Of a stretch of DNA of 64,000 nucleotides, positions 13,212 to 29,176 are shown in pieces. The notes under the pieces are model-generated. The model made no database searches and was not told the DNA's origin. It was given only the letters and a program-made list of their open reading frames with translations. A program made the position numbers and the translations under genes. This DNA is from a virus: the IMG/VR virus record IMGVR_UViG_3300050015_000167, positions 1 through 64,000 of that record. One strand, written 5' to 3'. The number at the start of each line of letters is the position of its first letter. Position 1 is the first letter of the stretch.

Positions 13212-13502
13212 ATGTTTGCTGATTTGATTCTCTATACCGAACCGGTAAGACCAGTTATTAATCCGATGTTCGATCTTTTTGCTTTTCTGGATTTGAAACA
13301 TATTCCGCCAATCCTACCTGCGAAGGTTGTGGACCATGTAGAATTGCGCTTACCAGAAAAGTGTAAAGAAATGGACTTCTTTCCAGATGATATTTGGGAT
13401 TTTATCTTGTGGCAGACAGAAGAGAAAGGTTATACGGTGGTTCGGTATGTAGATTCAAATTGGCTATATTGGGCCCTTTTGGTCAATAAATTAAAACACT
13501 AA
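13212..13502 (+). CDS. hypothetical protein (96 aa)
   Basis: ORF track 13137..13502 would overlap the divergent gene start; internal ATG 13212 preferred. Confidence 0.4.
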   Translation: MFADLILYTEPVRPVINPMFDLFAFLDLKHIPPILPAKVVDHVELRLPEKCKEMDFFPDDIWDFILWQTEEKGYTVVRYVDSNWLYWALLVNKLKH

Positions 13503-13563
13503 ATAGAAGTGATACCTTAATATAATAATAAAGGTCATCGAATTTAGAAAGGATCTAAAAACA

Positions 13564-13881
13564 ATGGCACAGACAGTAAGCGTTCAATATCAGATTAAGC
13601 AATACGGACTTCAGGGTAATGGTGCGGGAGCATTAGGAGCTCTACCTTATCAGTTGATTATCCACTTTCTTAGCGAATCTGAAGCAAGCGTAAAGAATGT
13701 ATTTCTTGGCGACTTCGACACGATTGCCCATGCAAAATATGCGGCAGTAGCATTTTTAACTAATGGATGGGTAACCGGTACTTTCTCAACAGCAGATACA
13801 TATTGGTCTCCTGCGGCAGCGGTAACAACGGCGGCAGAAGTTCTAAGTACGGTAGCCGTATTTACATTACAAGAAAGCTAA
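13564..13881 (+). CDS. small protein, paralog of 14388..14657
   Basis: Shares SEASVKNVFLGDF / SEASPKNVWLKDY and overall layout with the gene on the other side of the GIY-YIG gene. Confidence 0.6.
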   Translation: MAQTVSVQYQIKQYGLQGNGAGALGALPYQLIIHFLSESEASVKNVFLGDFDTIAHAKYAAVAFLTNGWVTGTFSTADTYWSPAAAVTTAAEVLSTVAVFTLQES

Positions 13882-13882
13882 A

Positions 13883-14407
13883 ATGAAACACAAGTATTCG
13901 GTGTATAAGCATACGAATACTATTTCTCGTAAAGCTTATATTGGATATACAAAGAAAACTATGAAACAAAGATGGAGCGACCATTTATATCGTTCCAGAA
14001 AATATAGTTTTGATAGAAAATTCGATAATGCTTTACGGGAATATCCGATGAATTTATGGGAAAATGAAATTTTATTTTCTGATATTAAAACTTTAGAAAA
14101 AGTCAAAAAATTAGAAATTGAAATGATTTCCAAATATGATACCTTCAATAATGGATACAATAGTAATCCAGGTGGAGGAGGTCACATACATTCTAAAGAA
14201 ACTAATTTGAAAATATCTAATTCTAAAAAGGGTCATTCTTATAATTTAGGATCTAAGCGTTCTGAAGAAACGAAAAAGAAAATGTCTCTTTCCAAGTTAG
14301 GAAATAAAAATTGTTTAGGACGTATTTTATCCAAAAAAACTAAAAAACAAATTAGTGTTTCTGAAAAGAAAACCAAAGGAGAAAAACGTGTTTCAATTTT
14401 ATATTAA
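13883..14407 (+). CDS. GIY-YIG homing endonuclease with NUMOD3-like repeats
   Basis: YSVYKHTN...KAYIGYTKKTMKQRWSDH (GIY-YIG); C-terminal KKGHSYNLGSKRSEETKKKMS repeats. Confidence 0.85.
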   Translation: MKHKYSVYKHTNTISRKAYIGYTKKTMKQRWSDHLYRSRKYSFDRKFDNALREYPMNLWENEILFSDIKTLEKVKKLEIEMISKYDTFNNGYNSNPGGGGHIHSKETNLKISNSKKGHSYNLGSKRSEETKKKMSLSKLGNKNCLGRILSKKTKKQISVSEKKTKGEKRVSILY

Positions 14408-16178: not shown

Positions 16179-16967
16179 TTGGTGGATGTCAAGCTAAATA
16201 TAGATACTATGTTAAATTCCTATTTTAATTTTTTTAAAGCAGCAAATGAGCAGAATCTTGTAGAAGATTTGGTTATTGAATCCATTCAAATTTATGGAAT
16301 GGATATCAATTATATACCCAAGACTTTAGTAGATTATAATGCGTTGCTCGGTGAAGATCCACAAAAAGCATTCCAACAATATTATACAATTGAATCGTAT
16401 ATGGAAAATATTGAAGGATTCACTGGTATGGGAAATTTCTTGAGCAAGATGGATCTTAACATAGACAAACAAGCCACATTCGTTTTTTCTAAACGAAGAT
16501 TTGATGAAGAGATTTTAGGATTAAATTGGAAAGGTGATTGGGTTTCAACCGTAACATATAATATAAATGATGCGGTACATTATCAAGGAATAATTTATAT
16601 TAGTGTTTATAATTCTAATTTAGGAAATATTCCTGGTTCTAATGCTAATTGGAGTGTAATGCTTCAAGTTCGTCCAAAAGAAGGAGATTTAATTTATCTT
16701 CCTCTTACTCATGATATCTTTGAAATCTTATTTGCCGATCATGAAGAAGTTTTCTATCAATTAGGAAAAATTTATGTTTGGAAAATTACCGCAGAAAAAT
16801 GGCGCGCTAATCATGAAGTTTTCGAAACAGGTAACGCTGAAATCGATGCCATCGCTGCCGAGTTGGATGAAGAAGATGGAGTAACAAAAGATCCGATAGC
16901 AGATAACTCCACTATTGAAGACCGTATGACATCTTTTCTTAATTTGGATCCAAAATCACCATTTTAA
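16179..16967 (+). CDS. g14: neck protein, g14-like (by position upstream of g15), with a CBM5/12-like insertion
   Basis: 262 aa, directly upstream of g15-g16 as in T4. EQNLVEDLVIESIQIYGMDINYIPK motif. Start codon uncertain (TTG/GTG). Confidence 0.5.
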   Translation: MVDVKLNIDTMLNSYFNFFKAANEQNLVEDLVIESIQIYGMDINYIPKTLVDYNALLGEDPQKAFQQYYTIESYMENIEGFTGMGNFLSKMDLNIDKQATFVFSKRRFDEEILGLNWKGDWVSTVTYNINDAVHYQGIIYISVYNSNLGNIPGSNANWSVMLQVRPKEGDLIYLPLTHDIFEILFADHEEVFYQLGKIYVWKITAEKWRANHEVFETGNAEIDAIAAELDEEDGVTKDPIADNSTIEDRMTSFLNLDPKSPF

Positions 16968-16976: not shown

Positions 16977-17498
16977 ATGTATATAATTTATAAGCATACA
17001 AATATCGTTTCTGGAAAATCGTATATAGGATATACAAATAAAACTATAGAAGAAAGATGGAAAATTCATTTACAACGTTCAAAAAATAATTATAAATGGA
17101 AATTCGATAAGGCTCTACGAAAGTATCCAGAAAATTCTTGGAATCATGAAATTTTATGTGAATGTGATACTTTAAAAGAAGCTAATCAAAAAGAAATTGA
17201 AATGATTTCCGTATATAAATCATATAAATATGGTTATAATTCTACATTAGGTGGAGATGGTGGTAGAACTAAAGGAATGACCGGTAAGAAACATTCGGAA
17301 AAAACTAAAGAAAAAATGAGAAGGTCTCGTTTAGGAAAGAAACTTTCTAAAGAAACGAAAAAGAAAATATCATTATCTTGTAAAGGAAAAATAGGTCATC
17401 CAATGTCGTCAGAACATAAAGCTAAATTATTATTATGTCATCTTGGTAAAGATTTAAAAAATAAAAAATTAGCTAAAGGATGTGTCTATGCTCGGTAA
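16977..17498 (+). CDS. GIY-YIG homing endonuclease with NUMOD3-like repeats
   Basis: MYIIYKHTNIVSGKSYIGYTNKTIEERWKIH; inserted between g14-like and g15. Confidence 0.85.
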   Translation: MYIIYKHTNIVSGKSYIGYTNKTIEERWKIHLQRSKNNYKWKFDKALRKYPENSWNHEILCECDTLKEANQKEIEMISVYKSYKYGYNSTLGGDGGRTKGMTGKKHSEKTKEKMRRSRLGKKLSKETKKKISLSCKGKIGHPMSSEHKAKLLLCHLGKDLKNKKLAKGCVYAR

Positions 17499-18231
17499 TG
17501 ATGTGTTTAATTTTCATACAATTGAGAAGATAATTTCTGCCTTTGGGTATATATTTTCAGATATATCTTTCCAGAGAATAGATCCCAATACATCTGCTGT
17601 TAAAACTATTAAGGTTCCAATCAGTCAATCAGCCAAAGAAAAATGGGCTGTACGTGATTTAGAAGATCCAAATGCTGGTGATGAATCACGCCAAAGACAT
17701 GTCCAGATTGTTTTACCCCGAATGGGATATGAAATGATTAATTTCTCTTTCGATCCCACGAGACAATTAACTCCAGTCAATTATCGCGTTCAATCTTCAG
17801 GTAATGGTCCTTCAGCATTAGTACAATTGAATCCTGTTCCTCAAATATTTGATTTTGAATTATATTTACAAACTCGTACATTAAGTGATTCATATGCTAT
17901 TGTTGAACAGATAGCCGCATTCTTTCATCCTGATTATGTTGTGCCCATCATTGATATTCCTGAAATGAATATTCGTAGAGATATCGTTTTTACTATGACT
18001 GGAAAATCTCATTCTGATAGTTATGAAGGTTCATTAATGGATAAACGTATTATTGAATGGACCTTTAATTTTCAAGCACAAGGTCATATTTATCCACCAA
18101 TTAGAGAAAAGAAAGTTATCACGAATACCAAAGTTTTCATGGACAATAGAGAAAGCGTACAACTTACTACGGATCCTCCTGCTCCGAATATTGATGAATC
18201 TTACGATATCATTGAAACTATAGTACCCTAA
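17482..18231 (+). CDS. g15: tail sheath stabiliser / tail completion protein g15
   Basis: FGYIFSDISFQRID...IKVPISQSAKEKW...VQIVLPRMGYEMINFSFD parallels T4 gp15 (LFSNIQIKRQ...IRVPITYASKEHF...ETILPRINLHLVDFSY). Confidence 0.75.
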   Translation: MSMLGNDVFNFHTIEKIISAFGYIFSDISFQRIDPNTSAVKTIKVPISQSAKEKWAVRDLEDPNAGDESRQRHVQIVLPRMGYEMINFSFDPTRQLTPVNYRVQSSGNGPSALVQLNPVPQIFDFELYLQTRTLSDSYAIVEQIAAFFHPDYVVPIIDIPEMNIRRDIVFTMTGKSHSDSYEGSLMDKRIIEWTFNFQAQGHIYPPIREKKVITNTKVFMDNRESVQLTTDPPAPNIDESYDIIETIVP

Positions 18232-18239: not shown

Positions 18240-18779
18240 ATGGCAAAAGGACAAAGAGGGCGACCTCCCAAGCAAACAACATCACAGAAGATTACCAGTG
18301 CCTTGGATATAGCGCAAGAAGAAATTACATCTTTGATGCCTATTGAACAACAGAATGCTTTGGTTCCTGTAATACAAACACCAGAAGTTATCGTGGCTGA
18401 ATCTCCACAGATTGTAAAAGATGCCAAAGATGATTATGATTTTGCCAGAAATAATTTACATAATCTTTTAAGTAAGGGTAATAAACTATTGGAAGGTATG
18501 TCGGATTTATGTAGTGAGAGTGATTCACCCAGAGCATTTGAAGTTGCCGGAAATCTTATAAAAACTTTAGTTGAAGGTACAAGAGAGTTAATGACTCTTC
18601 AAAAAGATATTAGAGACGTAGAAAAGAAGAATTCTCCTGATATTACTCCTGTTACTATTGAAAATGCTGAAGAGGTTAATCAATATCATTTGGAAGGCAC
18701 TACAATGGAAATGCTTGAGGCCTTAAATGAAATACGGCGAAAGAAAATAGAAAATCAACAAACCAAGGAAACAAAATAA
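18240..18779 (+). CDS. g16: terminase small subunit g16
   Basis: [14 protein letters not shown]...[19 protein letters not shown]...[10 protein letters not shown] parallels T4 gp16 (DDYGVVRRNMH...NADSPRHMEVFATLMGQM...ILKLHKDMKD). Confidence 0.75.
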
Positions 18780-19924
18780 TGGCTAATCCAAAAACACCAA
18801 TATATCCGAGTGCTCTTGCTACTGACCTTGATTTAAAGGTTGTTACGGATAATGCCTTTTCACCATTAGCTGCCGGTATTGATGGAGTCGTTACAGATAT
18901 ACCTTTCAATACTAATAGCGTATTTACCTTCCCTTGTCTTATTGCCTTGGAAAATGAAGTTATTTTAGCTGTAGGTCCTATTGTTGGTATTAACATTACA
19001 AATTGTCAAAGAGGATATATTGGTAGTGCTGTTCCTCACGCATTTAATATCGTCGGATTTGCTTATATCTTTGGTGACAATATTAATCAAATAACGGCTG
19101 AAATTAAAGCTATCGAAACCGCACTTGGAATATCTATTGTTAATGTAGTAAAACCGGGTGATGCGGCTGCTGGTGATTTGACTGGTACCTATCCGAACCC
19201 AACATTAGTAGCAACAGCAGTTACTCCAGGAACATATGGAACAGGTGTAGCTACTCCAGTAATTATTGTAGATCAAAAAGGAAGAATTACAAGTTTAACA
19301 ACTACTCCTACTTTGGGAGCAACAGGACCTACAGGACCTACTGGTTATACTGGTCCTGGTAACTTTACAGGATATACTGGATATACAGGGGTAACAGGAC
19401 CTACCGGTTTTACTGGTTTTACTGGTCCTGGTAATTTCACAGGATATACAGGACCCATTGGTCCTACTGGAGCAACTGGACCTACTGGTTTCACAGGATT
19501 CACTGGTCCTGGTAATTTTACAGGATATACAGGATATACAGGACCTACTGGTTATACAGGAATAACAGGACCCACTGGTTATACAGGATCTGGTAACTTC
19601 ACTGGTTATACTGGTTATACAGGACCTACAGGAGCAGGAGCAACAGGACCTACTGGGTTTACTGGATATACAGGAGCAGGAGCAACAGGACCCACTGGGT
19701 TTACTGGACCTGTAGGATATACTGGTCCGGGTAATTTCACAGGATATACTGGACCTACTGGTCCAAGTCAATGGACAACATCTGGTAGTGATATTTCTTT
19801 TGTATCAGGACGAATTATTATAAATGCTCCTACTTATGCTACAGATGGGGCCGCCGGTTCAGGAGGTCTTACAACCGGTATGGTTTATAAGCATTCAGAT
19901 GGTAGTCTTCAAGTCAAACTTTAA
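18779..19924 (+). CDS. collagen-like (G-X-T) fibre protein A
   Basis: About 180-aa N-domain nearly identical to that of 19949..21763, then about 150 aa of GPT/GYT/GFT triplets with 5 GNFTG interruptions (about 19316-19765). Confidence 0.85.
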
Positions 19925-19936
19925 GGATAAAGAGAA

Positions 19937-19944
19937 CTAAATAC
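19937..19944 (+). promoter_or_regulatory. CTAAATAC motif 4 nt before the start codon
   Basis: AACTAAATAC-TTTT-ATG 19949. Confidence 0.3.
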
Positions 19945-19948
19945 TTTT

Positions 19949-21763
19949 ATGGCTAATCCAAATACTCCAGTATATCCGAGTGCTCTTGCTACCGATTTGA
20001 ATTTAAAAGTCGTTACCGATAATGCTTTTTCTCCATTAGCTGCCGGTATTGATGGAGTAGTCACCGATATACCTTTTAATACCAATACTGTTTTTACATT
20101 CCCTTGTCTCATTGCTTTAGAGAATGAAATTATCTTGGCCGTTGGACCTATTGTTGGTATCAATATTACAAATTGTCAAAGAGGATATATTGGTAGTGCT
20201 GTTCCTCATGCGATGAATGTTGTAGGATTTGCTTATATCTTTAGTGACAATATCAATCAGATAACAGCCGAAATTAAAGCTATTGAGACCGCTTTAGGGG
20301 TAAATTTAGGTAATGTTGTTACTCCAAGTACGGCAGCCGGTGGTGATCTCGTAGGATTTTATCCTAACCCAACATTAGCAGCAACCGCAGTTACACCAAA
20401 TATATATGGTGATAATACCCATATTCCTGTAATTACTGTTGACCAAAAAGGACGCATAACAAATGTAAACCCTGTTCTTATTGGCGGCGCAACTGGTCCC
20501 ACAGGTTATACAGGGTATACTGGTTCTGCTGGTCCTACAGGATATACTGGGTTCACTGGCCCGGGTAATTTTACAGGTCCTACTGGTTATACAGGTCCTA
20601 CTGGTTATACAGGAGATACTGGTCCAGGTAACTTTACGGGTTATACAGGTTATACTGGATTTACAGGTTCAACTGGTTATACTGGTCCTATGGGATCTAC
20701 AGGACCAGGTAACTTTACAGGTTACACTGGTTATACAGGTTACACTGGACCAGCAATCACAGGCCCTACCGGTTATACGGGTTACACAGGAGCAGGAAAC
20801 TTTACTGGATATACAGGACCTACTGGATATACTGGTTTCACTGGTGCCACAGGTCCTGTAGGATATACAGGTGCTACAGGTTTTACTGGATATACGGGGA
20901 TGGGTTCAACCGGACCCACTGGTCCCGGTAACTTTACAGGATATACTGGTCCTACTGGTTTTACAGGTTATACGGGTGCGACAGGATTTACTGGTCCGGG
21001 TAACTTTACTGGATATACGGGACCTACAGGATATACAGGAGCTACTGGTTATACAGGTCCAGGTAACTTCACGGGATATACGGGTTACACCGGACCCACA
21101 GGATTCACTGGTCCTATAGGACCTACAGGTTATACAGGATTCACTGGCCCAGGTAACTTTACGGGATATACGGGTTATACTGGAGAAACTGGTCCTACGG
21201 GGTACACTGGTCCTGGAAACTTTACAGGACCTACAGGTTATACTGGTCCCGGTAATTTCACAGGATACACCGGACCAACAGGATATACCGGACCCGGTAA
21301 CTTTACAGGTTATACAGGATATACTGGTCCTAATGGACCTACAGGTGCGACCGGTTATACTGGTCCTATCGGTCCTACTGGAGCAACTGGTTATACTGGT
21401 CCTGGTAACTTTACAGGATATACGGGATATACGGGATATACAGGATATACTGGTCCAGGCAACTTTACCGGTTATACAGGATATACAGGACCTATTGGTC
21501 CCACGGGTTATACGGGGTACACTGGATATACTGGCCCTGGCGCAAGTTCATATGCGGTTCTTATTGGAGATGCTGCCGCAAGTACATTTACTGTTACTCA
21601 TAATTTGAATGCGGCGCATGTTTTTGTTTCGGTAAAAGATGCTACCTCAACATATCTTGTATTTCCAGATATTTCGATTACATCAAATAATGCTATTTCT
21701 GTAGCTTTTTCTATTATACCAACTCTTAACCAATATCTTGTTTCGGTTATAGGATTCGCATAA
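19949..21763 (+). CDS. collagen-like (G-X-T) fibre protein B
   Basis: Same N-domain, about 350 aa of G-X-T triplets with 13 GNFTG interruptions (about 20484-21540), about 70-aa C-terminal beta-rich domain. Confidence 0.85.
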
Positions 21764-21767
21764 AAAT

Positions 21768-22877
21768 ATGGCGAGAATATTTAATATTTCTCCTAATTGG
21801 CAGATTGATTGTGAAACTGCCAATTTTGGAAGTCAGGTTACTACGGATCAAATTAGTTTACCTAATTGGAATAATCTTGCTTTATTATTATCAAGAGGTA
21901 TCACTGGAGGAACTGTATTTACAAATCCTATAGCATCTACTTATAGTATAATATCTAATACCTATTATGGTGGAGTTTTAGCACCTAATGGTGATATACA
22001 TTTTGTTCCTCTAAATGCTGTTGTAGGACAAAAGATTTCTGCTGCTGGTGTTGTTTCTACTTACAGTTTGGTATATACCGTTGGTAGTATGAACACTGGT
22101 GGAGTTTTATCGCCTAATGGTGATATACATTTTGTACCTTATACTGCTTCTGTAGGACAAAAAATAAATTCTTCAGGTGTAGTATCAACTTATAGTTTGG
22201 TATATACCACCGCAACGGCTTATGTTGGTGGAGTTTTAGCGCCTAATGGTGATATACATTTTATACCATTTTTTGGTAGTGTAGGACAAAAAGTGTCCGT
22301 GGCTGGTGTTGTTTCTACTTATAGTTTAGTATATACTACCGCTAATGCATATTCTGGTGGAGTTTTAGCACCTAATGGTGATATATATTTTATGCCCAGG
22401 TCGGCTACTGTAGGACAAAAAGTATCTTCTACTGGTGTGGTATCGACATATAGTTTGGTATATACTACCGCTTCTGCTTGTACTGGTGGTGTAATTGATC
22501 CTAATGGTAATATACATTTGGTGCCTCAAAATGCTTCTGTAGGACAGAAAATATCTATTACGGGTGTTGTTTCTACTTATAGCTTGGTATATACTACCGC
22601 TAATGCATATTCTGGTGGAGTTTTAGCACCTAATGGTGATATACACTTTATACCGTTATCTGCTGCTGTCGGACAAAAAGTATCTCCTGCTGGTGTGGTT
22701 TCTACTTATAGTTTGGCATATACCGCTCCCACCGCGCATCTTGGTGGAATACTTTTACCTAATGGTGATATACATTTTATACCATTTTTTGGTAGTGTAG
22801 GACAAAAATTAACAACAGGAGCAGGTGTTAATTTTGGTATAGGAACTTGTTGTTCTCCTTATCTAAATAAATTTTAG
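21768..22877 (+). CDS. 7 x 43-aa repeat protein (beta-propeller-like), paralog 1
   Basis: Seven GGVLAPNGDIHF[VI]P...VGQK[IV]S..GVVSTYSLVYTT units; C-terminus CCSPYLNKF. Confidence 0.8.
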   Translation: MARIFNISPNWQIDCETANFGSQVTTDQISLPNWNNLALLLSRGITGGTVFTNPIASTYSIISNTYYGGVLAPNGDIHFVPLNAVVGQKISAAGVVSTYSLVYTVGSMNTGGVLSPNGDIHFVPYTASVGQKINSSGVVSTYSLVYTTATAYVGGVLAPNGDIHFIPFFGSVGQKVSVAGVVSTYSLVYTTANAYSGGVLAPNGDIYFMPRSATVGQKVSSTGVVSTYSLVYTTASACTGGVIDPNGNIHLVPQNASVGQKISITGVVSTYSLVYTTANAYSGGVLAPNGDIHFIPLSAAVGQKVSPAGVVSTYSLAYTAPTAHLGGILLPNGDIHFIPFFGSVGQKLTTGAGVNFGIGTCCSPYLNKF

Positions 22878-22885
22878 GAACTATT

Positions 22886-24013
22886 ATGGCAAACAATTCA
22901 ATCTCGACAGAATGGAATTCAGAAGTAACCTCACAAAATTGGGGTTTATATCCTTCTGGTGATAATAGTTCAATCGATACCGCATTAGTCGCATGGTATA
23001 ATTTACAGAATCTTATTGGAAAAAGTACGAACAGAGGAACAACATTTGCGAATGGAGTTATTTCTACTTACAGTCTGGTTTATACAACTACTAATGCCTA
23101 TATTAGTGGAGTACTTTCACCTAATGGAGATATTCATTTTATACCTTTTAGTGCTCCTGTAGGACAAAAAATAAATTCTTCTGGTGTTGTATCTACTTAT
23201 AGTTTGGTATATACTACTACATCTAATTATGCTGGTGGAGTACTCGCCCCTAATGGTGATATTCATTTTGTTTCTTACAATGCTGCTAAAGGACAAAAAA
23301 TAAATTCTTCTGGTATTGTTTCTACATATAGTTTGGTATATACAACCACTGGTGCCTATGTTGGTGGAGTACTTTCACCTAATGGTGACATACATTTTGT
23401 TCCTTTTAATGCTGTTGTAGGACAAAAGATTTCTGCTGCTGGTGTGGTTTCTACTTATAGTTTGGTATATACTGCGTCTGGTACGTACCAAGGGGGCACA
23501 CTTGCTCCTAATGGTGATATTCATTTTGTACCTTATTCTGCTACTATAGGTCAAAAGATATCTGCTGCTGGTGTTGTATCAACTTATAGCTTAATATATA
23601 CTACTGTTGGTGCGTATGATGGTGGAGTACTTGCTCCTAATGGGGATACACATTTTGTGCCTCGCGCCGCAATAGTAGGACAAAAAATATCTATTACTGG
23701 TGTTGTTTCAACCTATAGTTTGGTATATACTGCTGCTACGGCATATACAGGTGGTGTACTCGCCCCTAATGGTGATATACATTTTGTTCCTCAATCTGCT
23801 GCTGTAGGACAAAAGATTTCTGCTGCTGGTGTGGTTTCTACTTATAGTTTGGTATATACTACTACGGGTGCTTATTATGGTGGAGTACTTTCACCCAATG
23901 GTGATATTTATTTTATTCCTTTATCATCCGTTGTAGGACAAAAAATATCTACATTACCTGTTATTCCTTTTGATAATGCTCTTTGTCTTTCCCCTTTCTT
24001 TAATAAATTCTAA
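22886..24013 (+). CDS. 7 x 43-aa repeat protein, paralog 2
   Basis: Seven repeats; C-terminus CLSPFFNKF. Confidence 0.8.
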   Translation: MANNSISTEWNSEVTSQNWGLYPSGDNSSIDTALVAWYNLQNLIGKSTNRGTTFANGVISTYSLVYTTTNAYISGVLSPNGDIHFIPFSAPVGQKINSSGVVSTYSLVYTTTSNYAGGVLAPNGDIHFVSYNAAKGQKINSSGIVSTYSLVYTTTGAYVGGVLSPNGDIHFVPFNAVVGQKISAAGVVSTYSLVYTASGTYQGGTLAPNGDIHFVPYSATIGQKISAAGVVSTYSLIYTTVGAYDGGVLAPNGDTHFVPRAAIVGQKISITGVVSTYSLVYTAATAYTGGVLAPNGDIHFVPQSAAVGQKISAAGVVSTYSLVYTTTGAYYGGVLSPNGDIYFIPLSSVVGQKISTLPVIPFDNALCLSPFFNKF

Positions 24014-24017
24014 ATAC
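24010..24017 (+). promoter_or_regulatory. CTAAATAC motif overlapping the upstream stop, 4 nt before the start codon
   Basis: TTCTAAATAC-CATT-ATG 24022. Confidence 0.3.
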
Positions 24018-24021
24018 CATT

Positions 24022-25140
24022 ATGATAAGAGATATTTCCCCAACATTTTTAACAGAAGTTGCTGCCCTCACAAGAGGAACTATACCTACAGGTAACGATA
24101 GTTCTATATCAACTAATCTTGTTTCTTGGACGGGATTTCAGAAACTTCTAAAAGAAGGTGTGAATGGTGGATCTCTATTCAATAATACTGTAGTTTCTAC
24201 TTATAGTTTGGTATATACGAATATTAATAATTCTGCTGGTGGTGTTCTTTCTCAAAATGGAGATATACATTTTATACCAAGATCTTCAGTTGTAGGACAA
24301 AAGATATCGGCTTCTGGTGTTGTTTCAACCTATAGTTTGGTATATACAACTGCTAATGCGTATCATGGAGGAGTACTTGCGCCTAATGGTGATATTCATT
24401 TTGTACCCTTACTTGCGAATAGAGGACAAAAAGTTTCTTCTGCCGGTGTTGTTTCAACCTATAGCTTGGCATATACCGCAGGAAATTATCAAGGCGGTGT
24501 TCTTGCGCCTAATGGTGATATACATTTTGGTCCTCAAGTTGGACCAGGACAAAAAATTTCTGCTGCCGGTGTTGTTTCAACCTATAGTTTGGTATATACG
24601 GTTACTAATGCTTATGTTGGTGGTGTTCTTGCGCCTAATGGTGACATACATTTTGTACCCTATTCTGCTGTTGTAGGACAAAAAATTTCAGCATTAGGTG
24701 TTGTAACCACATATAGTTTGGTATATACAACCGCGGGTGCTTATTATGGTGGAGTACTTTCCCCTAATGGGGATATTCATTTGATACCTAATTCTGCTGT
24801 TGTAGGACAAAAAATATCTATTACTGGTGTAGTATCCACTTATAGTTTGGTATATACAACCGCGGTTGCTTATATTGGTGGTGTACTCGCCCCTAATGGT
24901 GATATACATTTTGTTCCTCAATCTGCTGCTGTAGGACAAAAGATTTCTGCTGCTGGTGTGGTTTCTACTTATAGTTTGGTATATACTAATTCCTTTTCTT
25001 TTATGAGTGGCACACTTGCGCCTAATGGTGATATTCATTTTGTACCCTATTCTTCTGTTGTGGGACAAAAAATTTCAACTAATCCAGGAGTAAAATTTAC
25101 CCTGGGTATTTGTATGAGCCCATTTTTAAATAAATTTTAA
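24022..25140 (+). CDS. 7 x 43-aa repeat protein, paralog 3
   Basis: Seven repeats; C-terminus CMSPFLNKF. 112 bp (24877-24988) are identical to 23750-23861. Confidence 0.8.
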   Translation: MIRDISPTFLTEVAALTRGTIPTGNDSSISTNLVSWTGFQKLLKEGVNGGSLFNNTVVSTYSLVYTNINNSAGGVLSQNGDIHFIPRSSVVGQKISASGVVSTYSLVYTTANAYHGGVLAPNGDIHFVPLLANRGQKVSSAGVVSTYSLAYTAGNYQGGVLAPNGDIHFGPQVGPGQKISAAGVVSTYSLVYTVTNAYVGGVLAPNGDIHFVPYSAVVGQKISALGVVTTYSLVYTTAGAYYGGVLSPNGDIHLIPNSAVVGQKISITGVVSTYSLVYTTAVAYIGGVLAPNGDIHFVPQSAAVGQKISAAGVVSTYSLVYTNSFSFMSGTLAPNGDIHFVPYSSVVGQKISTNPGVKFTLGICMSPFLNKF

Positions 25141-25160
25141 TCTGAATAAATATTATCACT

Positions 25161-26501
25161 ATGTACAACCGCGACAAAATTATTGAAACGATGCACCAAA
25201 TTAAAGATGAGTCTGATACTATTGCTCCTTATGTTGTAATAGCACAACCAAGAAGAATTAAAGAAGAGACTCCCGCCCAAAATTTTGATGGGTATGATAA
25301 CTTACATGTTGACTTACATGGGTTTAGTCATGGATATGTTGATATTGCTGGAGAAAAAGTAGATGTTGCCAGAAATTATTTAATGGAACAGGCTCTACAA
25401 AGTGGAGCCAAATATTTATTTTTTATCGGTGAAGATACAGTAGTTCCTATGAACGCCTTTAAAGTACTTCATAAGACAGCCGAAGAAAATCCTGAAGCGA
25501 TCATTGCTGGCGTTTATTATATAAAATTATCAGATGCTATGATTATGGTAAGAACAGGTGATTGGATCACTATACCTAATGTTGATCCGGGCCAATTGTT
25601 AGAAGCATGGCAAACAGGTATGGATTGTATGATGATTCCTATTACTGTTCTTCAAAAAATAAAAGATTCTTTTCCAGAATTACCATTTTGTTGTATCGGT
25701 AATAATGTAGATGGAATTCCTTTTATTGGAGAAGATAATTTCTTTGCTCATTTAGTTCATAAACTTGGTATCAAAATACTTGTTAATACTGATGTTCAAT
25801 GTTTACATATGGATATTGGTAATGGTAAATATACAGCGCATCCCGATGTGGATTTGAAAAATTACTTTACAAATATTCCTGTTACTGAAAGACTTACTAT
25901 AGCAGATAAGAAATATATTGATGACCGGTGGCTTAATAGATTACCAGAAGGTACAAGCAATTCTAAAAAATATCAACTTGACGATTTTATCAAACTTGGT
26001 TACCCCGTTAAATTCAATATGGGTTGCGGCCGCGATAAATTTGAGGGATATATTGGTATAGACAAATATAATGATGCTGCGGATATTAAAGAAGATGTAA
26101 CCAAATTATCTCTTCCATATTCTTGTGCTGATGAAATTTATGCCTCGCATTTAATTGAGCATATTCCTAATTTTCAAATTCCTGAAGTATTAACTTCATG
26201 GTTTAATATATTAAAACCAGAAGGACAATTAATTTTAGAAACTCCTAATCTGGAAGAATTATGTAAAGATTTTGAGACAGCCACAGAACAAGAACGATAT
26301 ATGATTTCATTGTGTATTTTTGGAGCAATTAATACTGATGGAAAGCAATTTGAAAACGGAACAGCAAGTCCACATTTATGGGGTTTTTATCCTAAAATAT
26401 TAGTAGAGATTCTTGAAAAAATAGGGTTCAAAGAAATAACTGTTCTACCACAAAAGGGATTACATCCTGGTAAGAATTTTAGAATAGAGGCGAAAAAATG
26501 A
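25161..26501 (+). CDS. glycosyltransferase-like N-domain fused to class I SAM-dependent methyltransferase
   Basis: N-part is GT-A-like (YLFFIGEDTVVP). C-part FNMGCGRDKFEGYIGIDK...ASHLIEHIP...LKPEGQLILETPN is a typical methyltransferase. Confidence 0.6.
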   Translation: MYNRDKIIETMHQIKDESDTIAPYVVIAQPRRIKEETPAQNFDGYDNLHVDLHGFSHGYVDIAGEKVDVARNYLMEQALQSGAKYLFFIGEDTVVPMNAFKVLHKTAEENPEAIIAGVYYIKLSDAMIMVRTGDWITIPNVDPGQLLEAWQTGMDCMMIPITVLQKIKDSFPELPFCCIGNNVDGIPFIGEDNFFAHLVHKLGIKILVNTDVQCLHMDIGNGKYTAHPDVDLKNYFTNIPVTERLTIADKKYIDDRWLNRLPEGTSNSKKYQLDDFIKLGYPVKFNMGCGRDKFEGYIGIDKYNDAADIKEDVTKLSLPYSCADEIYASHLIEHIPNFQIPEVLTSWFNILKPEGQLILETPNLEELCKDFETATEQERYMISLCIFGAINTDGKQFENGTASPHLWGFYPKILVEILEKIGFKEITVLPQKGLHPGKNFRIEAKK

Positions 26502-26941
26502 ATGTAACTATTTCCCTAGAAGGATTAAGAAGTTTAGATGCTCCAGAAACCCGGGTCTTGGCTGATATTGCCGTCACCTACAATTCTATTGTATATAATT
26601 GGCAAGTATATATTCCTACTAATACAACAAATTTAGGTGATTTTTTACAGAGTATCAGTGGTTTAATTACGGCTGATATTGATGAAAAGGAAGCCATCTG
26701 GGCTGCTTTAACACCAAAAACTCGTACTATTGATACTGGTATGGATAGTATTACTGTTGCTATTAATAAATCGGAAATTGTTAAGGCAACTATTCCCGAT
26801 TACTATGCTTTGCGTCGGGCAGCCTATCCATCAATTTTAGACCAAATAGGAGCATTATGGAAAGGACCAAAAGATCCTGATTATATTGCTATGCAGCAAG
26901 CCATAGAAACCGTAAAAAATAATATTCCTAAAAAATCATAA
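26498..26941 (+). CDS. hypothetical protein (147 aa)
   Basis: ATGA-coupled to the upstream gene. Confidence 0.6.
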   Translation: MNVTISLEGLRSLDAPETRVLADIAVTYNSIVYNWQVYIPTNTTNLGDFLQSISGLITADIDEKEAIWAALTPKTRTIDTGMDSITVAINKSEIVKATIPDYYALRRAAYPSILDQIGALWKGPKDPDYIAMQQAIETVKNNIPKKS

Positions 26942-26942
26942 T

Positions 26943-28682
26943 ATGACAGAAACTTATCTTGGAAATTCGAGTTTAAAAGATACCAATGTAAAAATCTCTT
27001 GGACACCAAAACGGCTCGCAGAACTACAAAAATGCGAGGAAGATCCCGTGTATTTTATCACGAAATATATCCAAGTAGTAACCATTGACGAAGGTGTAAC
27101 TGATTTTAAACTTTGGGATTTCCAAGCTAAATTGATTGAAACCGTACACGGTAATCGCTATGTTATTACCGTCATGCCTCGTCAAAGTGGTAAATCTACC
27201 ACGATGATTGCTTACTTCCTACATTATATTCTTTTCAACAAATATAAGCGTGTTGGTATCTTGGCTAATAAACGTGATACTGCTATAGAATTACTTTCCC
27301 GTCTTCAATTGGCTTTTGAGTTGTTACCAATGTGGTTACAACAGGGTGTGAAAGTTTGGAATAAAACAAGAATTGAATTAGAAAATGGTTGTATTATTGA
27401 AGCCCATGCTACTTCTGGCGCATCTGTTCGTGGAAAGACATTCAATATTATTTTCTTGGATGAATTTGCTCACATTGAACCAAAATTAGCAGATAAATTT
27501 TGGACATCTACATTTCCTGTTATTTCACAAGGTACAACATCTAAAGTTATAATTGTTTCTACTCCTAATGGAGTTAATCTATTTCATGATTTATGGACAA
27601 AAGCACAATTAGATCATTCGCATAAAGATTGGAACCAATTTATTCCTATTCAAGTTCATTATACTGAAGTTCCTGGTAGAGAAAAAGCTGAATGGGCTGA
27701 AAAGATGGTATCAATTATTGGACAAGATAGATTTGACCAAGAATTTGGTTGTGAGTTTTTGGGATCAGGTGCTACTCTTATTAACGGTAGATTTTTAAAA
27801 CTTTTACCAATTCGATCACCCTTATACTCTCAAAATGGATTAGATGTTTATGAAAATCCTGTTAAAACAATAAATGAACCTCATGTTTATGTTATTACGG
27901 TTGATACAGCACAAGGAAAACAATTAGATTATTCTGCGCTTTGTGTTATGGATGTTACTTCTTCTCCTTATAAAATAGTCGCTAAATATAGGAGTAATGT
28001 AATTCCTCCTGTATTATTTGCCGATCAGATTATACCTATCGCAAAACGGTATAATAATGCTTTCATTCTTATAGAAATGGATGGTCCTGGTTTTCAAGTT
28101 GCGGATGATTTACATCATATTCATGAATATGAAAATATCATGATGGTAGCAACAAAAGGCCGTTCAGGACAAATTTTAGCTACAGGTTTTGGTAATACAG
28201 GAAAAAATGTCCAAAGAGGATTAAAAATGAGTACTCCTGTTCGTAGGACAGGTTGTGCTAATCTTAAAACTCTGATAGAGAATAAAAAATTAGAAATATA
28301 TGATAATGATATTAAAAATGAATTAAATTCCTTTGAATTAAAAGGAGATAAATACCAAGCCGCAGAAGGACACCATGATGATTTAGTAATGACTCTTGTT
28401 ACCTTTTGTTGGTTAACAACCCAAAAACATTTTAGGGATCTCGTGGATTCTGCTGTTAGAGACGATCTATTAGATGAATATGCTCCAAATTTCGATCATG
28501 ATTTGACACCATATGGATGGCTTGAAATTCATCAAGATGTAGAAGAAATTATGTTAACTAAAAAGGATATTTGGAAAAGTGCCCAAAGTGATATTTGGGA
28601 ACATTATGCCGAAAGAGAACGCATAAAAGCCACCATTGATATGGACCGATTAAAACGATTACAAGATTATGGCTGGGCTTAA
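26943..28682 (+). CDS. g17: terminase large subunit g17
   Basis: Walker A MPRQSGKST; Walker B IIFLDEFAH; 579 aa; position before the sheath gene. Confidence 0.9.
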   Translation: MTETYLGNSSLKDTNVKISWTPKRLAELQKCEEDPVYFITKYIQVVTIDEGVTDFKLWDFQAKLIETVHGNRYVITVMPRQSGKSTTMIAYFLHYILFNKYKRVGILANKRDTAIELLSRLQLAFELLPMWLQQGVKVWNKTRIELENGCIIEAHATSGASVRGKTFNIIFLDEFAHIEPKLADKFWTSTFPVISQGTTSKVIIVSTPNGVNLFHDLWTKAQLDHSHKDWNQFIPIQVHYTEVPGREKAEWAEKMVSIIGQDRFDQEFGCEFLGSGATLINGRFLKLLPIRSPLYSQNGLDVYENPVKTINEPHVYVITVDTAQGKQLDYSALCVMDVTSSPYKIVAKYRSNVIPPVLFADQIIPIAKRYNNAFILIEMDGPGFQVADDLHHIHEYENIMMVATKGRSGQILATGFGNTGKNVQRGLKMSTPVRRTGCANLKTLIENKKLEIYDNDIKNELNSFELKGDKYQAAEGHHDDLVMTLVTFCWLTTQKHFRDLVDSAVRDDLLDEYAPNFDHDLTPYGWLEIHQDVEEIMLTKKDIWKSAQSDIWEHYAERERIKATIDMDRLKRLQDYGWA

Positions 28683-28708: not shown

Positions 28709-29176
28709 ATGCAACACATTCATCATATTGAGCCGAAATATTTGATAGGAGAAGATAATTCACCTGATAATCTTACACCTCCAATTTCGGTAGCTTTACA
28801 TGCGGCTTTGCACCAAGATCTTTATGAACATTTTGGAAATACGGAAGATTTAAGAGCCTATAAAATGTTATTAGGAGAATCTTTGAGTGGTATTATGGAT
28901 TCTGAGAAATACCGAAATAAATTATCTGAATCGCAAAAAGGAAATAAAAATAGGTTAGGAACAAAACATTCGGAAGAATCTATATTAAAAATAAGTAATA
29001 AATTAAAATTAAGAAAACATTCGGATGAATCCAAAATAAAAAGTTCCAAAACACAGAAAGGTAAAATACTTTCTAAAGAACACATAGAAAATATGTCGGC
29101 ATCTTTGAAGGGAAGGAAACTTTCTAAAGAACATCGAGAAAATATTGGAAAAGCCATAAAAGCTAAAATGCTCTAA
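28709..29176 (+). CDS. HNH homing endonuclease with NUMOD-like repeats; paralog of 56883..57383
   Basis: HHIEPKYLIGEDNSPDNLTPPISVALHAALH; C-terminal KHSEES/SKEH repeats; sits between g17 and g18. Confidence 0.75.
   Translation: MQHIHHIEPKYLIGEDNSPDNLTPPISVALHAALHQDLYEHFGNTEDLRAYKMLLGESLSGIMDSEKYRNKLSESQKGNKNRLGTKHSEESILKISNKLKLRKHSDESKIKSSKTQKGKILSKEHIENMSASLKGRKLSKEHRENIGKAIKAKML

What the first reader, a model, noticed from the sequence alone, without database searches (positions are those of the whole stretch)
21768..25140. Three tandem paralogs of a 7 x 43-aa repeat protein, with long identical DNA tracts and a conserved C-x-SP[FY][FL]NKF tail
Seen in sequence:
- Each gene (369-375 aa) has a divergent 55-aa head.
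- Each then has seven units of about 43 aa: GGVLAPNGDIHF[VI]P..A.VGQKIS..GVVSTYSLVYTT..AY.
- Each has a near-identical C-terminus: CCSPYLNKF, CLSPFFNKF or CMSPFLNKF.
- A 112-bp stretch is identical between 23750-23861 and 24877-24988. Shorter identical blocks recur in all three genes.

Inference:
- Seven repeats of this size fit a seven-bladed beta-propeller, a common carbohydrate- or ligand-binding scaffold.
- The identical tracts indicate ongoing gene conversion or recent duplication.
- The variable heads could dock the three versions to different partners.
- I do not recognise the repeat as any named family.
- The codons of the LNKF tail also contain TAAATAA, so part of its conservation may be regulatory.
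Basis: partly seen in the sequence, partly recalled or inferred. Interest (0 to 1): 0.7.

Follow-up and report, generated by a model that had tools for sequence, protein, structure and literature searches.

The report
Triplet of phage propeller receptor-binding proteins
An uncultured T4-like phage carries three neighbouring genes for seven-bladed propeller proteins that most likely form the host-binding tips of a collagen-like fibre; the same triplet occurs in many related phages, with a rigid scaffold and fast-changing loops on one face.

Summary

AlphaFold gives a confident seven-bladed propeller (pLDDT 87). Its closest solved fold is streptogramin B (Vgb) lyase, but Vgb's His/Glu/His metal site is absent.

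This is not a recent duplication. Forty-nine of 54 related viral loci carry exactly three such genes, followed by a glycosyltransferase-like gene and a 147-aa gene. Heads and tails group by gene position across phages.

Within each blade, 29 of 43 positions are at least 85% conserved. Positions 2, 17, 18, 20 and 40-42 are hypervariable and lie on one face. Phages whose glycosyltransferases are 96-99% identical have propellers only 66-83% identical.

Longer relatives carry a tail-fibre N-terminal anchor. Short forms, as here, sit directly after a fibre gene that ends in a shared 75-aa domain (21 of 25 loci versus 0 of 43).

Best reading: these are virion receptor-binding tips, possibly a heterotrimer on the collagen-like fibre, and their loops are partly shuffled by short-patch gene conversion. 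The idea that the tail is conserved as a TAAATAA DNA signal is not supported. Binding, virion location and stoichiometry are untested.

The parts
21768..22877 (+). Propeller gene A (369 aa). Position-1 type: tail ...IGTCCSPYLNKF.
   Evidence: ORF. Seven blades. In head plus tail its nearest relatives are position-1 genes of other loci. Vgb_lyase PF24684 hit at E = 9e-11, below the cutoff.
22886..24013 (+). Propeller gene B (375 aa). Position-2 type: tail ...TLPVIPFDNALCLSPFFNKF.
   Evidence: AF2 model pLDDT 86.9, seven-bladed. Foldseek top hits are Vgb lyases. Nearest head plus tail relative is L005 gene 2.
24022..25140 (+). Propeller gene C (372 aa). Position-3 type: head ...LLKEGVNGG..., tail ...GICMSPFLNKF.
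   Evidence: ORF. Blades. Nearest head plus tail relative is L067 gene 3.
23750..23861 (+). Gene-conversion tract, copy in blade 6 of gene B. It carries the BC loop QSAAV and the CD loop SAA.
   Evidence: Exact 112-nt identity with 24877-24988. P about 1e-15. Blade positions 3-40.
24877..24988 (+). Gene-conversion tract, copy in blade 6 of gene C.
19949..21763 (+). Collagen-like fibre protein (604 aa). Its last roughly 78 aa (about 21527-21760) form the small beta-rich domain ('CTdom') that lies directly upstream of short-type propeller triplets in related loci. Proposed docking platform.
   Evidence: Pfam Collagen E = 8.5e-28. PHROG tail-fibre families. The CTdom is adjacent upstream in 21/25 short-type loci and 0/43 long-type loci.
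18779..19924 (+). Second collagen-like fibre protein (381 aa). Same N-terminal roughly 180 aa as the 604-aa protein, but a different C-terminus.
   Evidence: BLASTP gives 68% identity overall, and the first 120 aa are nearly identical.
25161..26501 (+). Glycosyltransferase-like N-terminal domain fused to a SAM methyltransferase-like C-terminal domain. Always follows the third propeller gene.
   Evidence: PHROG 34859 glycosyltransferase E = 6e-9; weak Pfam methyltransferase hits. Conserved synteny. 96-99% identical between phages whose propellers are 66-83% identical. No match among solved structures by sequence profile.
26498..26941 (+). Conserved 147-aa protein of unknown fold; last gene of the module.
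   Evidence: Synteny. 855 homologues, none named. AF2 pLDDT 85 but no PDB fold match (best E = 0.18).
17223..17230 (+). T4-type late-promoter motif TATAAATA; the nearest one upstream of the module.
   Evidence: Only four matches in the window, all on the + strand, three of them just upstream of structural or homing-endonuclease genes; this one (17223) lies inside the homing-endonuclease ORF 16977-17498. None lies inside 18240-26941. The total count is not above chance. No intergenic terminator-like site lies in the module.

Best explanation
Genes A, B and C most likely encode virion-borne receptor-binding (adhesin) domains of an uncultured T4-like myovirus.

Each protein is a rigid seven-bladed beta-propeller. 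Both termini and the invariant PNGD loops lie on one face. The hypervariable B-C and D-A loops of all seven blades lie on the opposite face, which is inferred to contact the host surface.

The short forms in this window lack the tail-fibre anchor that longer relatives carry. They are inferred to dock onto the roughly 75-aa C-terminal domain of the trimeric collagen-like fibre encoded immediately upstream. The docking element may be their N-terminal peptide of about 20 residues, which is conserved but unstructured in the monomer model.

Because exactly three position-specific paralogues are kept across this phage lineage, my working model is one A, one B and one C per fibre trimer. I put that stoichiometry at about 0.35-0.4.

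Loop diversity turns over far faster than the neighbouring genes. Part of it comes from short-patch gene conversion among the 21 blades.

Shown: fold, conservation pattern, synteny, conversion tracts. Inferred: virion location, docking, stoichiometry, ligand.
For: Context
- The genes lie inside the T4-type late structural block gp14-gp15-TerS-[module]-TerL-sheath-tube-portal.
- In relatives the module sits just upstream of gp14. That is the 'host recognition cluster' position described for pelagi- and cyanomyophages (PMC7029224).

Fold
- AF2 gives a seven-bladed propeller.

Architecture of relatives
- In multi-domain relatives the propeller and its tail are almost always at the extreme C-terminus of proteins up to about 1,470 aa.
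- The 460-aa relatives start with a roughly 100-aa domain that is 45-61% identical to the N-termini of annotated tail-fibre proteins of phages Venkman, CRP-6, HTVC023P and Cd.
- In Cylindrospermopsis phage CrV-01T the propeller ends a 1,138-aa protein next to virion structural proteins.

Anchor in cis versus in trans
- 21/25 short-type loci have a fibre gene ending in the shared C-terminal domain directly upstream, against 0/43 long-type loci.

Variability
- Over 668 distinct blades, 29/43 positions are at least 85% conserved. Entropy peaks at positions 2, 17, 18, 20 and 40-42. These are the B-C and D-A loops according to the DSSP strand map.
- Between phages with glycosyltransferases 96-99% identical, propellers are 66-83% identical. 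The ten variable positions differ in 72% of comparisons, the scaffold positions in 12%, and the tail in 7%.

Triplet
- 49/54 complete loci have exactly three genes, spaced 1-10 nt apart.
- For head plus tail, 116/129 nearest neighbours in other loci are at the same gene position, and 0/129 nearest neighbours overall are same-genome paralogues.

Conversion
-.

Precedents
- The phi11 Gp45 trimer has a platform of three propellers (PMC4901313).
- Collagen-plus-propeller fibres occur in eCIS (PMC12923769).
- A Hokovirus collagen-repeat protein is the top viral fold match.

The family is virus-restricted: only 5 close hits (plus one weak, 34%-identity match) in 185,579 species genomes, all on MAG contigs.
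Against: - There is no direct evidence that the proteins are in virions or bind anything. No cultured phage carries the module.
- The window proteins themselves lack a recognised anchor domain.
- The short-versus-long dichotomy may partly reflect two clades rather than many independent events.
- The heterotrimer idea rests only on copy number, positional orthology and tight gene spacing. No complex prediction could be run.
- Lectins are not among the top 50 fold matches.
- The co-conserved glycosyltransferase-like gene and the 147-aa gene remain unexplained.
- Position in the genome cannot separate tail fibre from neck whisker or head fibre.
- In more divergent phage pairs, most loop changes have no donor within the triplet.
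Confidence: 0.6

Rival explanations
1. Three independent, alternative receptor-binding proteins. Each paralogue would assemble on its own, as a monomer or homo-oligomer, on different fibres or sites. The phage would then have three specificities rather than one heterotrimeric tip.
For: - Phages with several receptor-binding proteins are common (established knowledge).
- The three paralogues have distinct conserved head and tail signatures.
- The window encodes two collagen-like fibres with different C-termini.
- A few loci carry only one or two propeller genes.
Against: - The strict number three in 49/54 loci, the fixed order and the 1-10 nt spacing suggest stoichiometric co-production.
- Blade bodies carry no position-specific signal (identity 0.708 for same position versus 0.706 for different position). 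The paralogues therefore differ mainly where they would contact partners.
- Only one fibre with the shared C-terminal domain sits upstream.
Confidence: 0.25
2. Enzymes of the Vgb type: lyases or lactonases, or another propeller hydrolase, that degrade a host surface polymer or a small molecule.
For: - The best sequence and fold matches are streptogramin B lyases.
- Propeller enzymes such as endosialidases occur in phage tailspikes (PMC4901313 discussion).
- One homologous module has an alginate-lyase gene nearby (L001).
Against: - Scores are below the Pfam and NCBIfam cutoffs.
- I recall Vgb's metal-binding residues as H228/E268/H270. In the alignment they map to D-A-loop positions that are Tyr, Ala or hypervariable here.
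- None of the 21 D-A loops has an E-x-H motif.
- The face that is catalytic in Vgb is the hypervariable one here, which is not expected of a conserved active site.
Confidence: 0.07
3. Loop hypervariability is produced by a dedicated mutagenic system (a diversity-generating retroelement) rather than by recombination and selection.
For: Variation is concentrated in a few codons of a binding scaffold, and Asn is frequent at the variable positions.
Against: - Variation affects all 21 blades of three genes, not a single C-terminal variable region.
- Differences between near-identical phages are multi-nucleotide patches that change all four bases. In 3 of 4 clusters the new patch has an identical copy elsewhere in the same triplet.
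- No reverse-transcriptase family appeared among the window or locus genes that were scanned. The scan was not exhaustive.
Confidence: 0.03
4. The identical tracts or the triplication are assembly artefacts or a very recent duplication.
For: Repeats 70-94% identical are difficult for short-read assemblers. Read-level data are not available.
Against: - All three reading frames are intact with seven blades each.
- The same three-gene architecture recurs in more than 50 independent contigs from many samples.
- Heads and tails are orthologous by position.
- A mis-join between B6 and C6 would delete a whole gene rather than create an identical tract.
Confidence: 0.02

Closest known systems
Streptogramin B / virginiamycin B lyase (Vgb; Pfam PF24684; PDB 2z2n/2z2o/2z2p, 2qc5)
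   Same: - Seven-bladed, four-stranded propeller with blades of about 42-43 aa.
- Shared blade motif: ...G..PNGDIWFTE...G.I.EY.L in Vgb versus GGVLAPNGDIHFVP...GVVSTYSL here.
- Foldseek E = 1e-19, TM 0.84-0.89 (normalised by target length), 18-21% identity.
- Profile against PDB sequences E = 9e-12.
   Different: - Below the family cutoffs.
- No His/Glu/His metal site.
- An extra 55-70 aa head and a conserved 20-aa C-terminal tail.
- Virus-restricted, encoded in a structural operon.
- The face that is catalytic in Vgb is hypervariable here.
Staphylococcus phage phi11 receptor-binding protein Gp45 (PMC4901313)
   Same: [quoted passage not shown]
   Different: - phi11 has five-bladed propellers within one homotrimeric multidomain chain of a siphovirus baseplate.
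- Here there are seven-bladed propellers on three separate paralogous polypeptides in a T4-like myovirus.
- No detectable sequence relationship.
Collagen-shaft plus beta-propeller fibres: eCIS eBAP3 fibres (PMC12923769) and the Hokovirus HKV1 collagen-repeat protein A0A1V0SG21
   Same: - Both combine a collagen-like triple-helix shaft with a propeller domain.
- The Hokovirus protein is the best viral fold match: TM 0.80 (normalised by query length), rmsd 1.9 A, 23% identity.
   Different: - In those, shaft and propeller are one polypeptide. Here the shaft (19949-21763) and three propellers are separate adjacent genes.
[quoted passage not shown]
Cylindrospermopsis phages CrV-01T gp012 (AXK90424) and Cr-LKS4
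   Same: The only cultured-phage homologues (36% identity). They have seven GGVLAPNGRIY blades at the C-terminus and end in ...SLNKI. CrV-01T gp012 lies next to virion structural proteins.
   Different: - A single 1,138-aa fusion protein in CrV-01T, with no triplet directly downstream.
- No glycosyltransferase-like or 147-aa gene there.
- Blades have a different second half.
- Annotated only as a hypothetical protein.
Host recognition cluster of pelagi- and cyanomyophages (PMC7029224)
   Same: A hypervariable block of fibre genes and glycosyltransferases immediately upstream of neck gene gp14 in T4-like aquatic phages. The module occupies that place in relatives.
   Different: - That paper does not mention propellers (0 occurrences of the word).
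- In this window the module lies between TerS and TerL instead.

Membership tests
Vgb_lyase (PF24684) / streptogramin B lyase | Seven-bladed beta-propeller fold | tested here: met
   AF2 pLDDT 86.9, 28 strands in 7 blades. Foldseek against 2qc5/2z2o/2z2p: E about 1e-19, TM 0.84-0.89 normalised by target length.
Vgb_lyase (PF24684) / streptogramin B lyase | Score at or above the curated family cutoff | tested here: not met
   Pfam 41.5, 46.8 and 36.4 bits against a 50-bit cutoff. NCBIfam Vgb(A) 52 bits against a 600-bit cutoff.
Vgb_lyase (PF24684) / streptogramin B lyase | Mg2+-binding catalytic residues (His228, Glu268, His270 of S. aureus Vgb; residue numbers recalled from memory) | tested here: not met
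   In the profile alignment the equivalent residues of 2qc5 (H233, E273, H275) fall on D-A-loop positions that are Tyr, Ala or hypervariable here. None of the 21 D-A loops has E-x-H. The blade register in sequence alignments is ambiguous, so this is a motif-level test.
Vgb_lyase (PF24684) / streptogramin B lyase | Linearises streptogramin B antibiotics | not testable with these tools
   Needs an enzyme assay.
Phage tail-fibre / receptor-binding proteins | Encoded in the late structural gene block next to fibre genes | tested here: met
   The genes lie between TerS and TerL, directly after two collagen-like fibre genes. Relatives lie just upstream of gp14.
Phage tail-fibre / receptor-binding proteins | N-terminal virion-anchor domain with the binding domain at the C-terminus | tested here: inconclusive
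   Long relatives have an N-terminal domain shared with annotated tail fibres, and the propeller is C-terminal throughout the family. The window proteins have no anchor. Docking in trans is inferred from the 21/25 versus 0/43 co-occurrence.
Phage tail-fibre / receptor-binding proteins | Evolves much faster than neighbouring genes, with variation focused on surface loops | tested here: met
   66-83% identity against 96-99% for the adjacent glycosyltransferase-like gene. Differences occur in 72% of comparisons at ten loop positions against 12% at scaffold positions.
Phage tail-fibre / receptor-binding proteins | Present in virions and binds the host receptor | not testable with these tools
   No cultured phage carries the module. 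The host is unknown.
Multivalent beta-propeller lectins (for example PLL, AAL, tachylectin) | Sequence or fold kinship and repeated sugar sites between blades | tested here: inconclusive
   No lectin is among the top 50 PDB fold matches. High blade-to-blade similarity is lectin-like. Sugar binding is not testable here.
Diversity-generating retroelement target | Template and variable repeat pair with adenine-specific differences, plus a reverse transcriptase | tested here: not met
   Differences are multi-base patches affecting all bases, and donor copies exist in other blades. No RT was seen among the scanned genes. The scan was not exhaustive.

The most novel reading that the evidence does not exclude
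The triplet may be an obligate heterotrimeric receptor-binding tip: three different seven-bladed propellers docked in trans onto one collagen-like fibre trimer. Its 21 near-consensus blades would also serve as a mutual cassette library. Short-patch gene conversion would move whole B-C, C-D and D-A loops between blades and genes, giving the phage a built-in recombinational way to re-tune host binding without a dedicated mutagenic enzyme. The co-conserved glycosyltransferase-like and 147-aa proteins would be needed to modify or assemble the tip.
Probability: 0.25. Interest if true: 0.8.

Novelty: new variant of a known kind. Interest (0 to 1): 0.6.

Why it matters
The family is large and essentially virus-only: more than 900 proteins in the 90%-identity clusters, and 448 clusters at 50% identity with E <= 1e-30. 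It has no annotation and I found no literature on it.

It marks the likely host-recognition device of a widespread uncultured lineage of T4-like aquatic phages, including contigs of 160-490 kb.

If the model holds, it offers three things:
- A compact natural 'consensus repeat plus variable loops' binding scaffold, comparable in logic to designed repeat proteins or variable lymphocyte receptors.
- A rare case of a heteromeric receptor-binding tip.
- A sequence marker (three propellers, a glycosyltransferase-like gene and the 147-aa gene) for locating host-range determinants in metagenomic phage genomes.

It would also extend the collagen-shaft-plus-propeller fibre design, so far noted in eCIS and predicted in giant viruses, to tailed phages.

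Tried and rejected
- Exact look-up of gene B in public assemblies: not on record.
- PHROGs on the three proteins gave only spurious short hits. PHROGs on the 460-aa-type anchor domain found nothing. tblastn then found tail-fibre N-termini.
- The 147-aa protein has no Pfam, NCBIfam or PDB sequence hit. Its AF2 model is confident (pLDDT 85) but has no PDB fold match (best E = 0.18). Its function remains unknown.
- The glycosyltransferase-like protein has no PDB sequence-profile hit and no NCBIfam hit. The only support for the name is a PHROG family.
- Literature searches for the repeat motif, for streptogramin lyase plus phage, and for CrV-01T / Cr-LKS4 structural annotation found no description of this family.
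- Rfam: no RNA family anywhere in the window. No tRNAs.
- Sigma-70 promoter and terminator scans show nothing above shuffled expectation. The terminator-like hits inside the genes are the SPNGD codons TCACCTAATGGTGA.
- The first blade-identity analysis was spoiled by two very long sequences and was redone.
- An all-against-all blastn of whole triplets was uninformative because every blade hits every other blade. It was replaced by gene-by-gene global alignments.
- Concerted evolution of whole paralogues within a genome is rejected. Within-genome blade identity is 0.724 against 0.706-0.708 between genomes, and long identical tracts are sporadic: median 29 nt, 7/51 triplets with tracts of 60 nt or more.
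The face assignments therefore rest on strand order, not on inspection of the 3D model.

Full report
**1. Observation**

The window region 21768-25140 holds three + strand ORFs of 369, 375 and 372 aa, 8 nt apart. The repeat finder aligns 21 copies of one unit, seven per gene, at 129-nt spacing. Tandem Repeats Finder gives period-129 arrays of 6.5-7.0 copies per gene.

Translation shows units of the form YxGGVLAPNGDIHFVPxxAxVGQKISxxGVVSTYSLVYTxxxA. The tails read CCSPYLNKF, CLSPFFNKF and CMSPFLNKF.

The 112-bp identity 23750-23861 = 24877-24988 is exact and bounded by mismatches. It joins blade 6 of gene B to blade 6 of gene C. These two blades are 94% identical over the whole unit, whereas nearly all other in-register blade pairs are 69-86% identical.

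Using the site-specific match frequencies of the other blades, 112 consecutive matches have a probability of about 1e-15. Third-position differences are 2/43 for B6-C6 against 16-23/43 for other B-C blade pairs.

**2. Genomic setting**

The window is a T4-like myovirus. The gene order is as follows:
- neck protein gp14 (16179-16967)
- a homing endonuclease
- gp15 (17482-18231)
- small terminase (18240-18779)
- two collagen-like fibre genes (18779-19924 and 19949-21763)
- the three repeat genes
- a glycosyltransferase-like / methyltransferase-like fusion (25161-26501)
- a 147-aa ORF (26498-26941)
- large terminase (26943-28682)
- another homing endonuclease
- sheath, tube and portal

TerL is only 45-49% identical to cyanomyovirus and pelagimyovirus TerL, so the lineage is uncultured.

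The T4 late-promoter motif TATAAATA occurs four times, all on the + strand. Three lie just upstream of structural or homing-endonuclease genes, and the one at 17223 lies inside the homing-endonuclease ORF 16977-17498. None lies inside 18240-26941. No intergenic terminator-like site lies in the module. The module therefore looks like part of a late polycistronic unit. This is an inference, and the motif count is not above chance.

**3. Fold**

An alignment of gene B with 32 homologues gave an AlphaFold2 model with pLDDT 86.9 and pTM 0.86.
- It has 28 strands in seven four-stranded blades.
- The N-terminal strand at residues 58-62 (VISTY) supplies the outer strand of blade 7, the usual 'velcro' closure.
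- A helix spans residues 35-49.
- Residues 1-21 are unstructured.
- The last 15 residues are of moderate confidence.

Foldseek against the PDB puts streptogramin/virginiamycin B lyases first: E about 1e-19, TM 0.84-0.89 normalised by target length, rmsd 2.4-3.0 A, 18-21% identity.

The kinship is also visible in sequence:
- Pfam Vgb_lyase scores 36-47 bits, below the 50-bit cutoff.
- NCBIfam Vgb(A) gives E = 4e-14, far below its cutoff.
- The family profile against PDB gives E = 9e-12.
- The single sequence gives E = 3e-7, with the shared blade motif PNGDI[WH]F.

I recall Vgb's metal-binding residues as His228/Glu268/His270. Their equivalents in 2qc5 (H233/E273/H275) align to D-A-loop positions that are Tyr, Ala or hypervariable here. 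No E-x-H occurs in any of the 21 D-A loops. The proteins therefore share the fold and repeat ancestry of Vgb lyases but fail the catalytic and threshold tests for membership.

**4. The triplet is old and conserved**

A database search found more than 936 homologues, none named informatively. An exhaustive profile search found 448 clusters at 50% identity with E <= 1e-30.

An IMG/VR scan gave 161 relatives in 77 loci. Further loci came from ENA and JGI contigs, including contigs of 162, 231, 238 and 490 kb.

Annotating all loci with the window's proteins gave these results:
- 49 of 54 loci with a full view carry exactly three full-length propeller genes. Three loci carry two and two loci carry one. 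Intergenic gaps are mostly 1-3 or 8-10 nt.
- The triplet is followed by the glycosyltransferase-like gene, with or without the methyltransferase half, and by the 147-aa gene.
- In relatives the module lies 0.8-4.7 kb upstream of gp14-gp15-TerS-TerL-sheath. That is the end of the 'host recognition cluster' described for pelagi- and cyanomyophages (PMC7029224). In this window it sits between TerS and TerL instead.

Using only the head and tail (the non-repeat parts), 116 of 129 genes have their nearest neighbour from another locus at the same gene position. None of the 129 has a same-genome paralogue as its overall nearest neighbour. Window gene A matches position 1 (tail IGTCCS), B matches position 2 (TLPxIPF...C[LM]SPFFNKF) and C matches position 3 (head ...EGVNGG).

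'Recent duplication' is therefore rejected. Three distinct, position-specific paralogues have been maintained.

Only five close hits (plus one weak, 34%-identity match) occur among 185,579 species genomes, all on MAG contigs. Two of the close hits lie on one 257-kb contig that may itself be phage DNA (not checked). Among cultured phages only two Cylindrospermopsis phages have a relative, at 36% identity.

**5. Scaffold and variable loops**

Over 668 distinct canonical 43-aa blades, 29 positions are at least 85% conserved. Entropy is concentrated at positions 2, 17, 18, 20 and 40-42, and is moderate at positions 21, 27 and 28.

From the DSSP strand map, the strands are:
- strand A: unit positions 1-6
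- strand B: positions 12-16
- strand C: positions 22-25
- strand D: positions 31-34

The hypervariable residues therefore sit in the B-C and D-A loops. In a four-stranded meander these loops lie on the same face, the usual ligand face of propellers and the face that carries Vgb's active site.

The invariant PNGD (A-B loop), the C-D loop, the N-terminal head and the C-terminal tail lie on the opposite face.

Blade bodies carry no positional or genomic signal. Identity is 0.708 at the same position, 0.706 at different positions and 0.724 within a genome.

Between phages whose glycosyltransferase-like proteins are 96-99% identical and whose 147-aa proteins are 88-98% identical, the propellers are only 66-83% identical. 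In 126 orthologous blades from such pairs:
- the ten variable positions differ in 72% of comparisons
- the other 33 positions differ in 12%
- the N-terminal regions differ in 14%
- the last 20 residues differ in 7%

This is the pattern expected of a host-recognition surface under diversifying pressure.

**6. Gene conversion**

Besides the B6-C6 tract, identical tracts carry whole loops between blades:
- A3 and A7: 51 nt, carrying the B-C loop FFGSV
- A3/4 and A5/6: 57 nt, carrying the D-A loop TANAYS
- B3 and B6/C6: 58 nt

Two nearly identical phages (L010 and L012) differ in the propellers by tight clusters of 3-9 substitutions in loops. For three of four clusters, the variant sequence (a 16-24-mer) also exists at another blade of the same triplet, which is a donor copy.

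In a more divergent pair, 9-15 of 48 clusters have such copies. In still more divergent pairs few do. Across 51 distinct triplets the longest inter-paralogue identical tract has a median of 29 nt. Seven triplets reach 60 nt or more, and only this window exceeds 100 nt.

Short-patch conversion is therefore real and recurrent but sporadic. It does not homogenise the genes and it explains only part of the loop turnover.

A diversity-generating retroelement is unlikely. The patches change all four bases, all 21 blades vary, and no reverse transcriptase was seen among the genes scanned.

**7. The tail**

The motif [FYW][LF]NK[FYL]-stop is kept in 211 homologous genes, while the codons vary freely: AAT/AAC 149/62, AAA/AAG 106/104, six Leu codons, and TAA/TAG/TGA 140/42/29. 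A related ...SLNKI ends the distant CrV-01T protein.

Selection therefore acts on the peptide, not on a TAAATAA DNA element. In almost all multi-domain relatives the profile match runs to the very last residue of the protein. The tail appears to be an integral, strictly C-terminal part of the domain. It may be a latch on the conserved face or a contact element.

**8. Anchor in cis or in trans**

Relatives of about 460 aa carry an extra roughly 100-aa N-terminal domain (MALVLKNRVKSTTTTTGTGT...). It is 45-61% identical to the N-termini of annotated tail-fibre proteins of Methylophilales phage Venkman, Roseobacter phage CRP-6, Pelagibacter phage HTVC023P and Azospirillum phage Cd.

Other relatives carry Laminin_G_3 domains, a second propeller, or other repeats inserted in that domain.

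Short forms, as in this window, lack the anchor. In 21 of 25 such loci the gene ending a few nucleotides upstream of propeller gene 1 terminates in the same roughly 75-aa domain as the window's 604-aa collagen-like protein. The body of that fibre varies widely (113 to 2,953 aa). None of 43 long-type loci has it.

Short forms also share an N-terminal ISPxWxxEV peptide. It is conserved but unstructured in the monomer model, which is typical of a segment that folds on a partner.

I therefore infer that the short propellers dock onto the C-terminal domain of the trimeric fibre. The caveat is that short and long types may be two clades, so the counts are not independent events.

**9. Mechanism proposed**

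A, B and C are most likely virion-borne receptor-binding tips (confidence about 0.6). Their conserved face, with both termini, points to the fibre. Their hypervariable face, with 14 B-C and D-A loops per propeller, points to the host.

The strict triplet, positional orthology and tight spacing suggest one A, one B and one C per fibre trimer (about 0.35-0.4). The alternative is three independent binding proteins (about 0.25).

Precedents:
- The phi11 Gp45 trimer has a platform of three propellers (PMC4901313).
- eCIS fibres combine collagen shafts with propeller lectins (PMC12923769).
- A Hokovirus collagen-repeat protein is the best viral fold match for the model: TM 0.80 normalised by query length, rmsd 1.9 A.
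- CrV-01T gp012 has the propeller at the end of a 1,138-aa protein beside virion structural proteins.

Whether the fibre is a tail fibre, a neck whisker (in relatives the module lies just upstream of the neck genes, which as I recall is where T4 encodes gp12 and wac) or a head fibre cannot be decided. The roles of the glycosyltransferase-like protein and the 147-aa protein are unknown. The latter has a confident model but no known fold match.

**10. Novelty and verdict**

The fold, and the idea of propeller receptor-binding domains, are known. New here are:
- a large, unannotated, virus-restricted family
- the obligate triplet with positional orthology
- the near-consensus scaffold with hypervariable loops on one face
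- the cis/trans anchor dichotomy
- loop transfer by short-patch conversion

I found no description of any of these in the searchable literature.

I rate it a new variant of a known kind, with interest 0.6.

Noticed in passing
window 40000-44503: A GC-rich island (0.53-0.58, against 0.33-0.36 around it) lies just after the head genes. It holds ORFs 40033-40830, 40832-42058 (a 408-aa leucine-rich-repeat protein, LRR_4 E = 3e-29), 42037-42453 and 42477-43589 (no family). A short tyrosine recombinase follows (43823-44503, Phage_integrase E = 1e-39). It could be a foreign insertion or a recombinase-controlled surface-protein cassette.
   Followed up: partly
window 1-12000: GC is 0.44-0.53, with only small ORFs (mostly 70-150 aa) on both strands and almost no family hits. 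A 33-nt tandem repeat (8.3 copies, 95% matches) lies at 123-397. The composition is very unlike the rest of the phage. The origin is unexplained; it could be a hyperplastic early region, foreign DNA or a chimeric assembly.
   Followed up: partly
window 13883-14407, 16977-17498, 28709-29176, 38427-39344, 56883-57383: Several GIY-YIG / homing-endonuclease-like genes are scattered through the structural block. One lies between gp14 and gp15 and one between TerL and the sheath gene. They flank the unusually placed module and could have mediated its relocation.
   Followed up: no
window 18240-28682 compared with L005, L014, L028, L031 and others: In related phages the module (fibre, three propellers, glycosyltransferase-like gene, 147-aa gene) lies upstream of gp14-gp15-TerS-TerL. 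In this window it is inserted between TerS and TerL, splitting the terminase gene pair.
   Followed up: partly
window 18779-19924 and 19949-21763: The two tandem collagen-like fibre genes have nearly identical N-terminal regions of about 120-180 aa but different lengths and C-termini. Only the second ends in the 75-aa domain linked to the propellers. A third ORF matching the collagen-like fibre protein in the phmmer screen lies at 47112-47804.
   Followed up: partly
window 23375-23388, 23760-23775, 24887-24902 and other blades: The codons for (S/A)PNGD form a short hairpin-capable palindrome (TCACCTAATGGTGA or TCGCCCCTAATGGTGA) in many blades, which the terminator scan picks up. It is probably a by-product of the codons, but such inverted repeats could favour template switching.
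   Followed up: no
L079 8906-13699 and L081; L037 7531-9693 and 11097-13274: Some relatives have a whole second propeller, or a different repeat array (FFKPDGLKMYV...), inserted inside the N-terminal tail-fibre anchor domain. These are nested domain insertions that give proteins of 720-823 aa.
   Followed up: no
L004 (JGI Ga0620986_00209, a 490,601-bp contig), locus positions 1-13632: The same module occurs in a 490-kb contig that has a T4-type terminase nearby. Its upstream fibre gene encodes 4,586 aa and ends in the same 75-aa domain. This may be a very large phage genome.
   Followed up: no
window 26498-26941: The 147-aa protein belongs to a family of at least 855 proteins, all unnamed. Its predicted structure is confident (a three-stranded sheet, a long helix, a hairpin and a helical bundle) but has no match in the PDB.
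   Followed up: yes
L001 4087-5199 (- strand): In one group of related contigs an alginate-lyase-family gene (PF05426) lies between the third propeller gene and the glycosyltransferase-like gene. A cluster of glycosyltransferase and methyltransferase genes follows the module.
   Followed up: no
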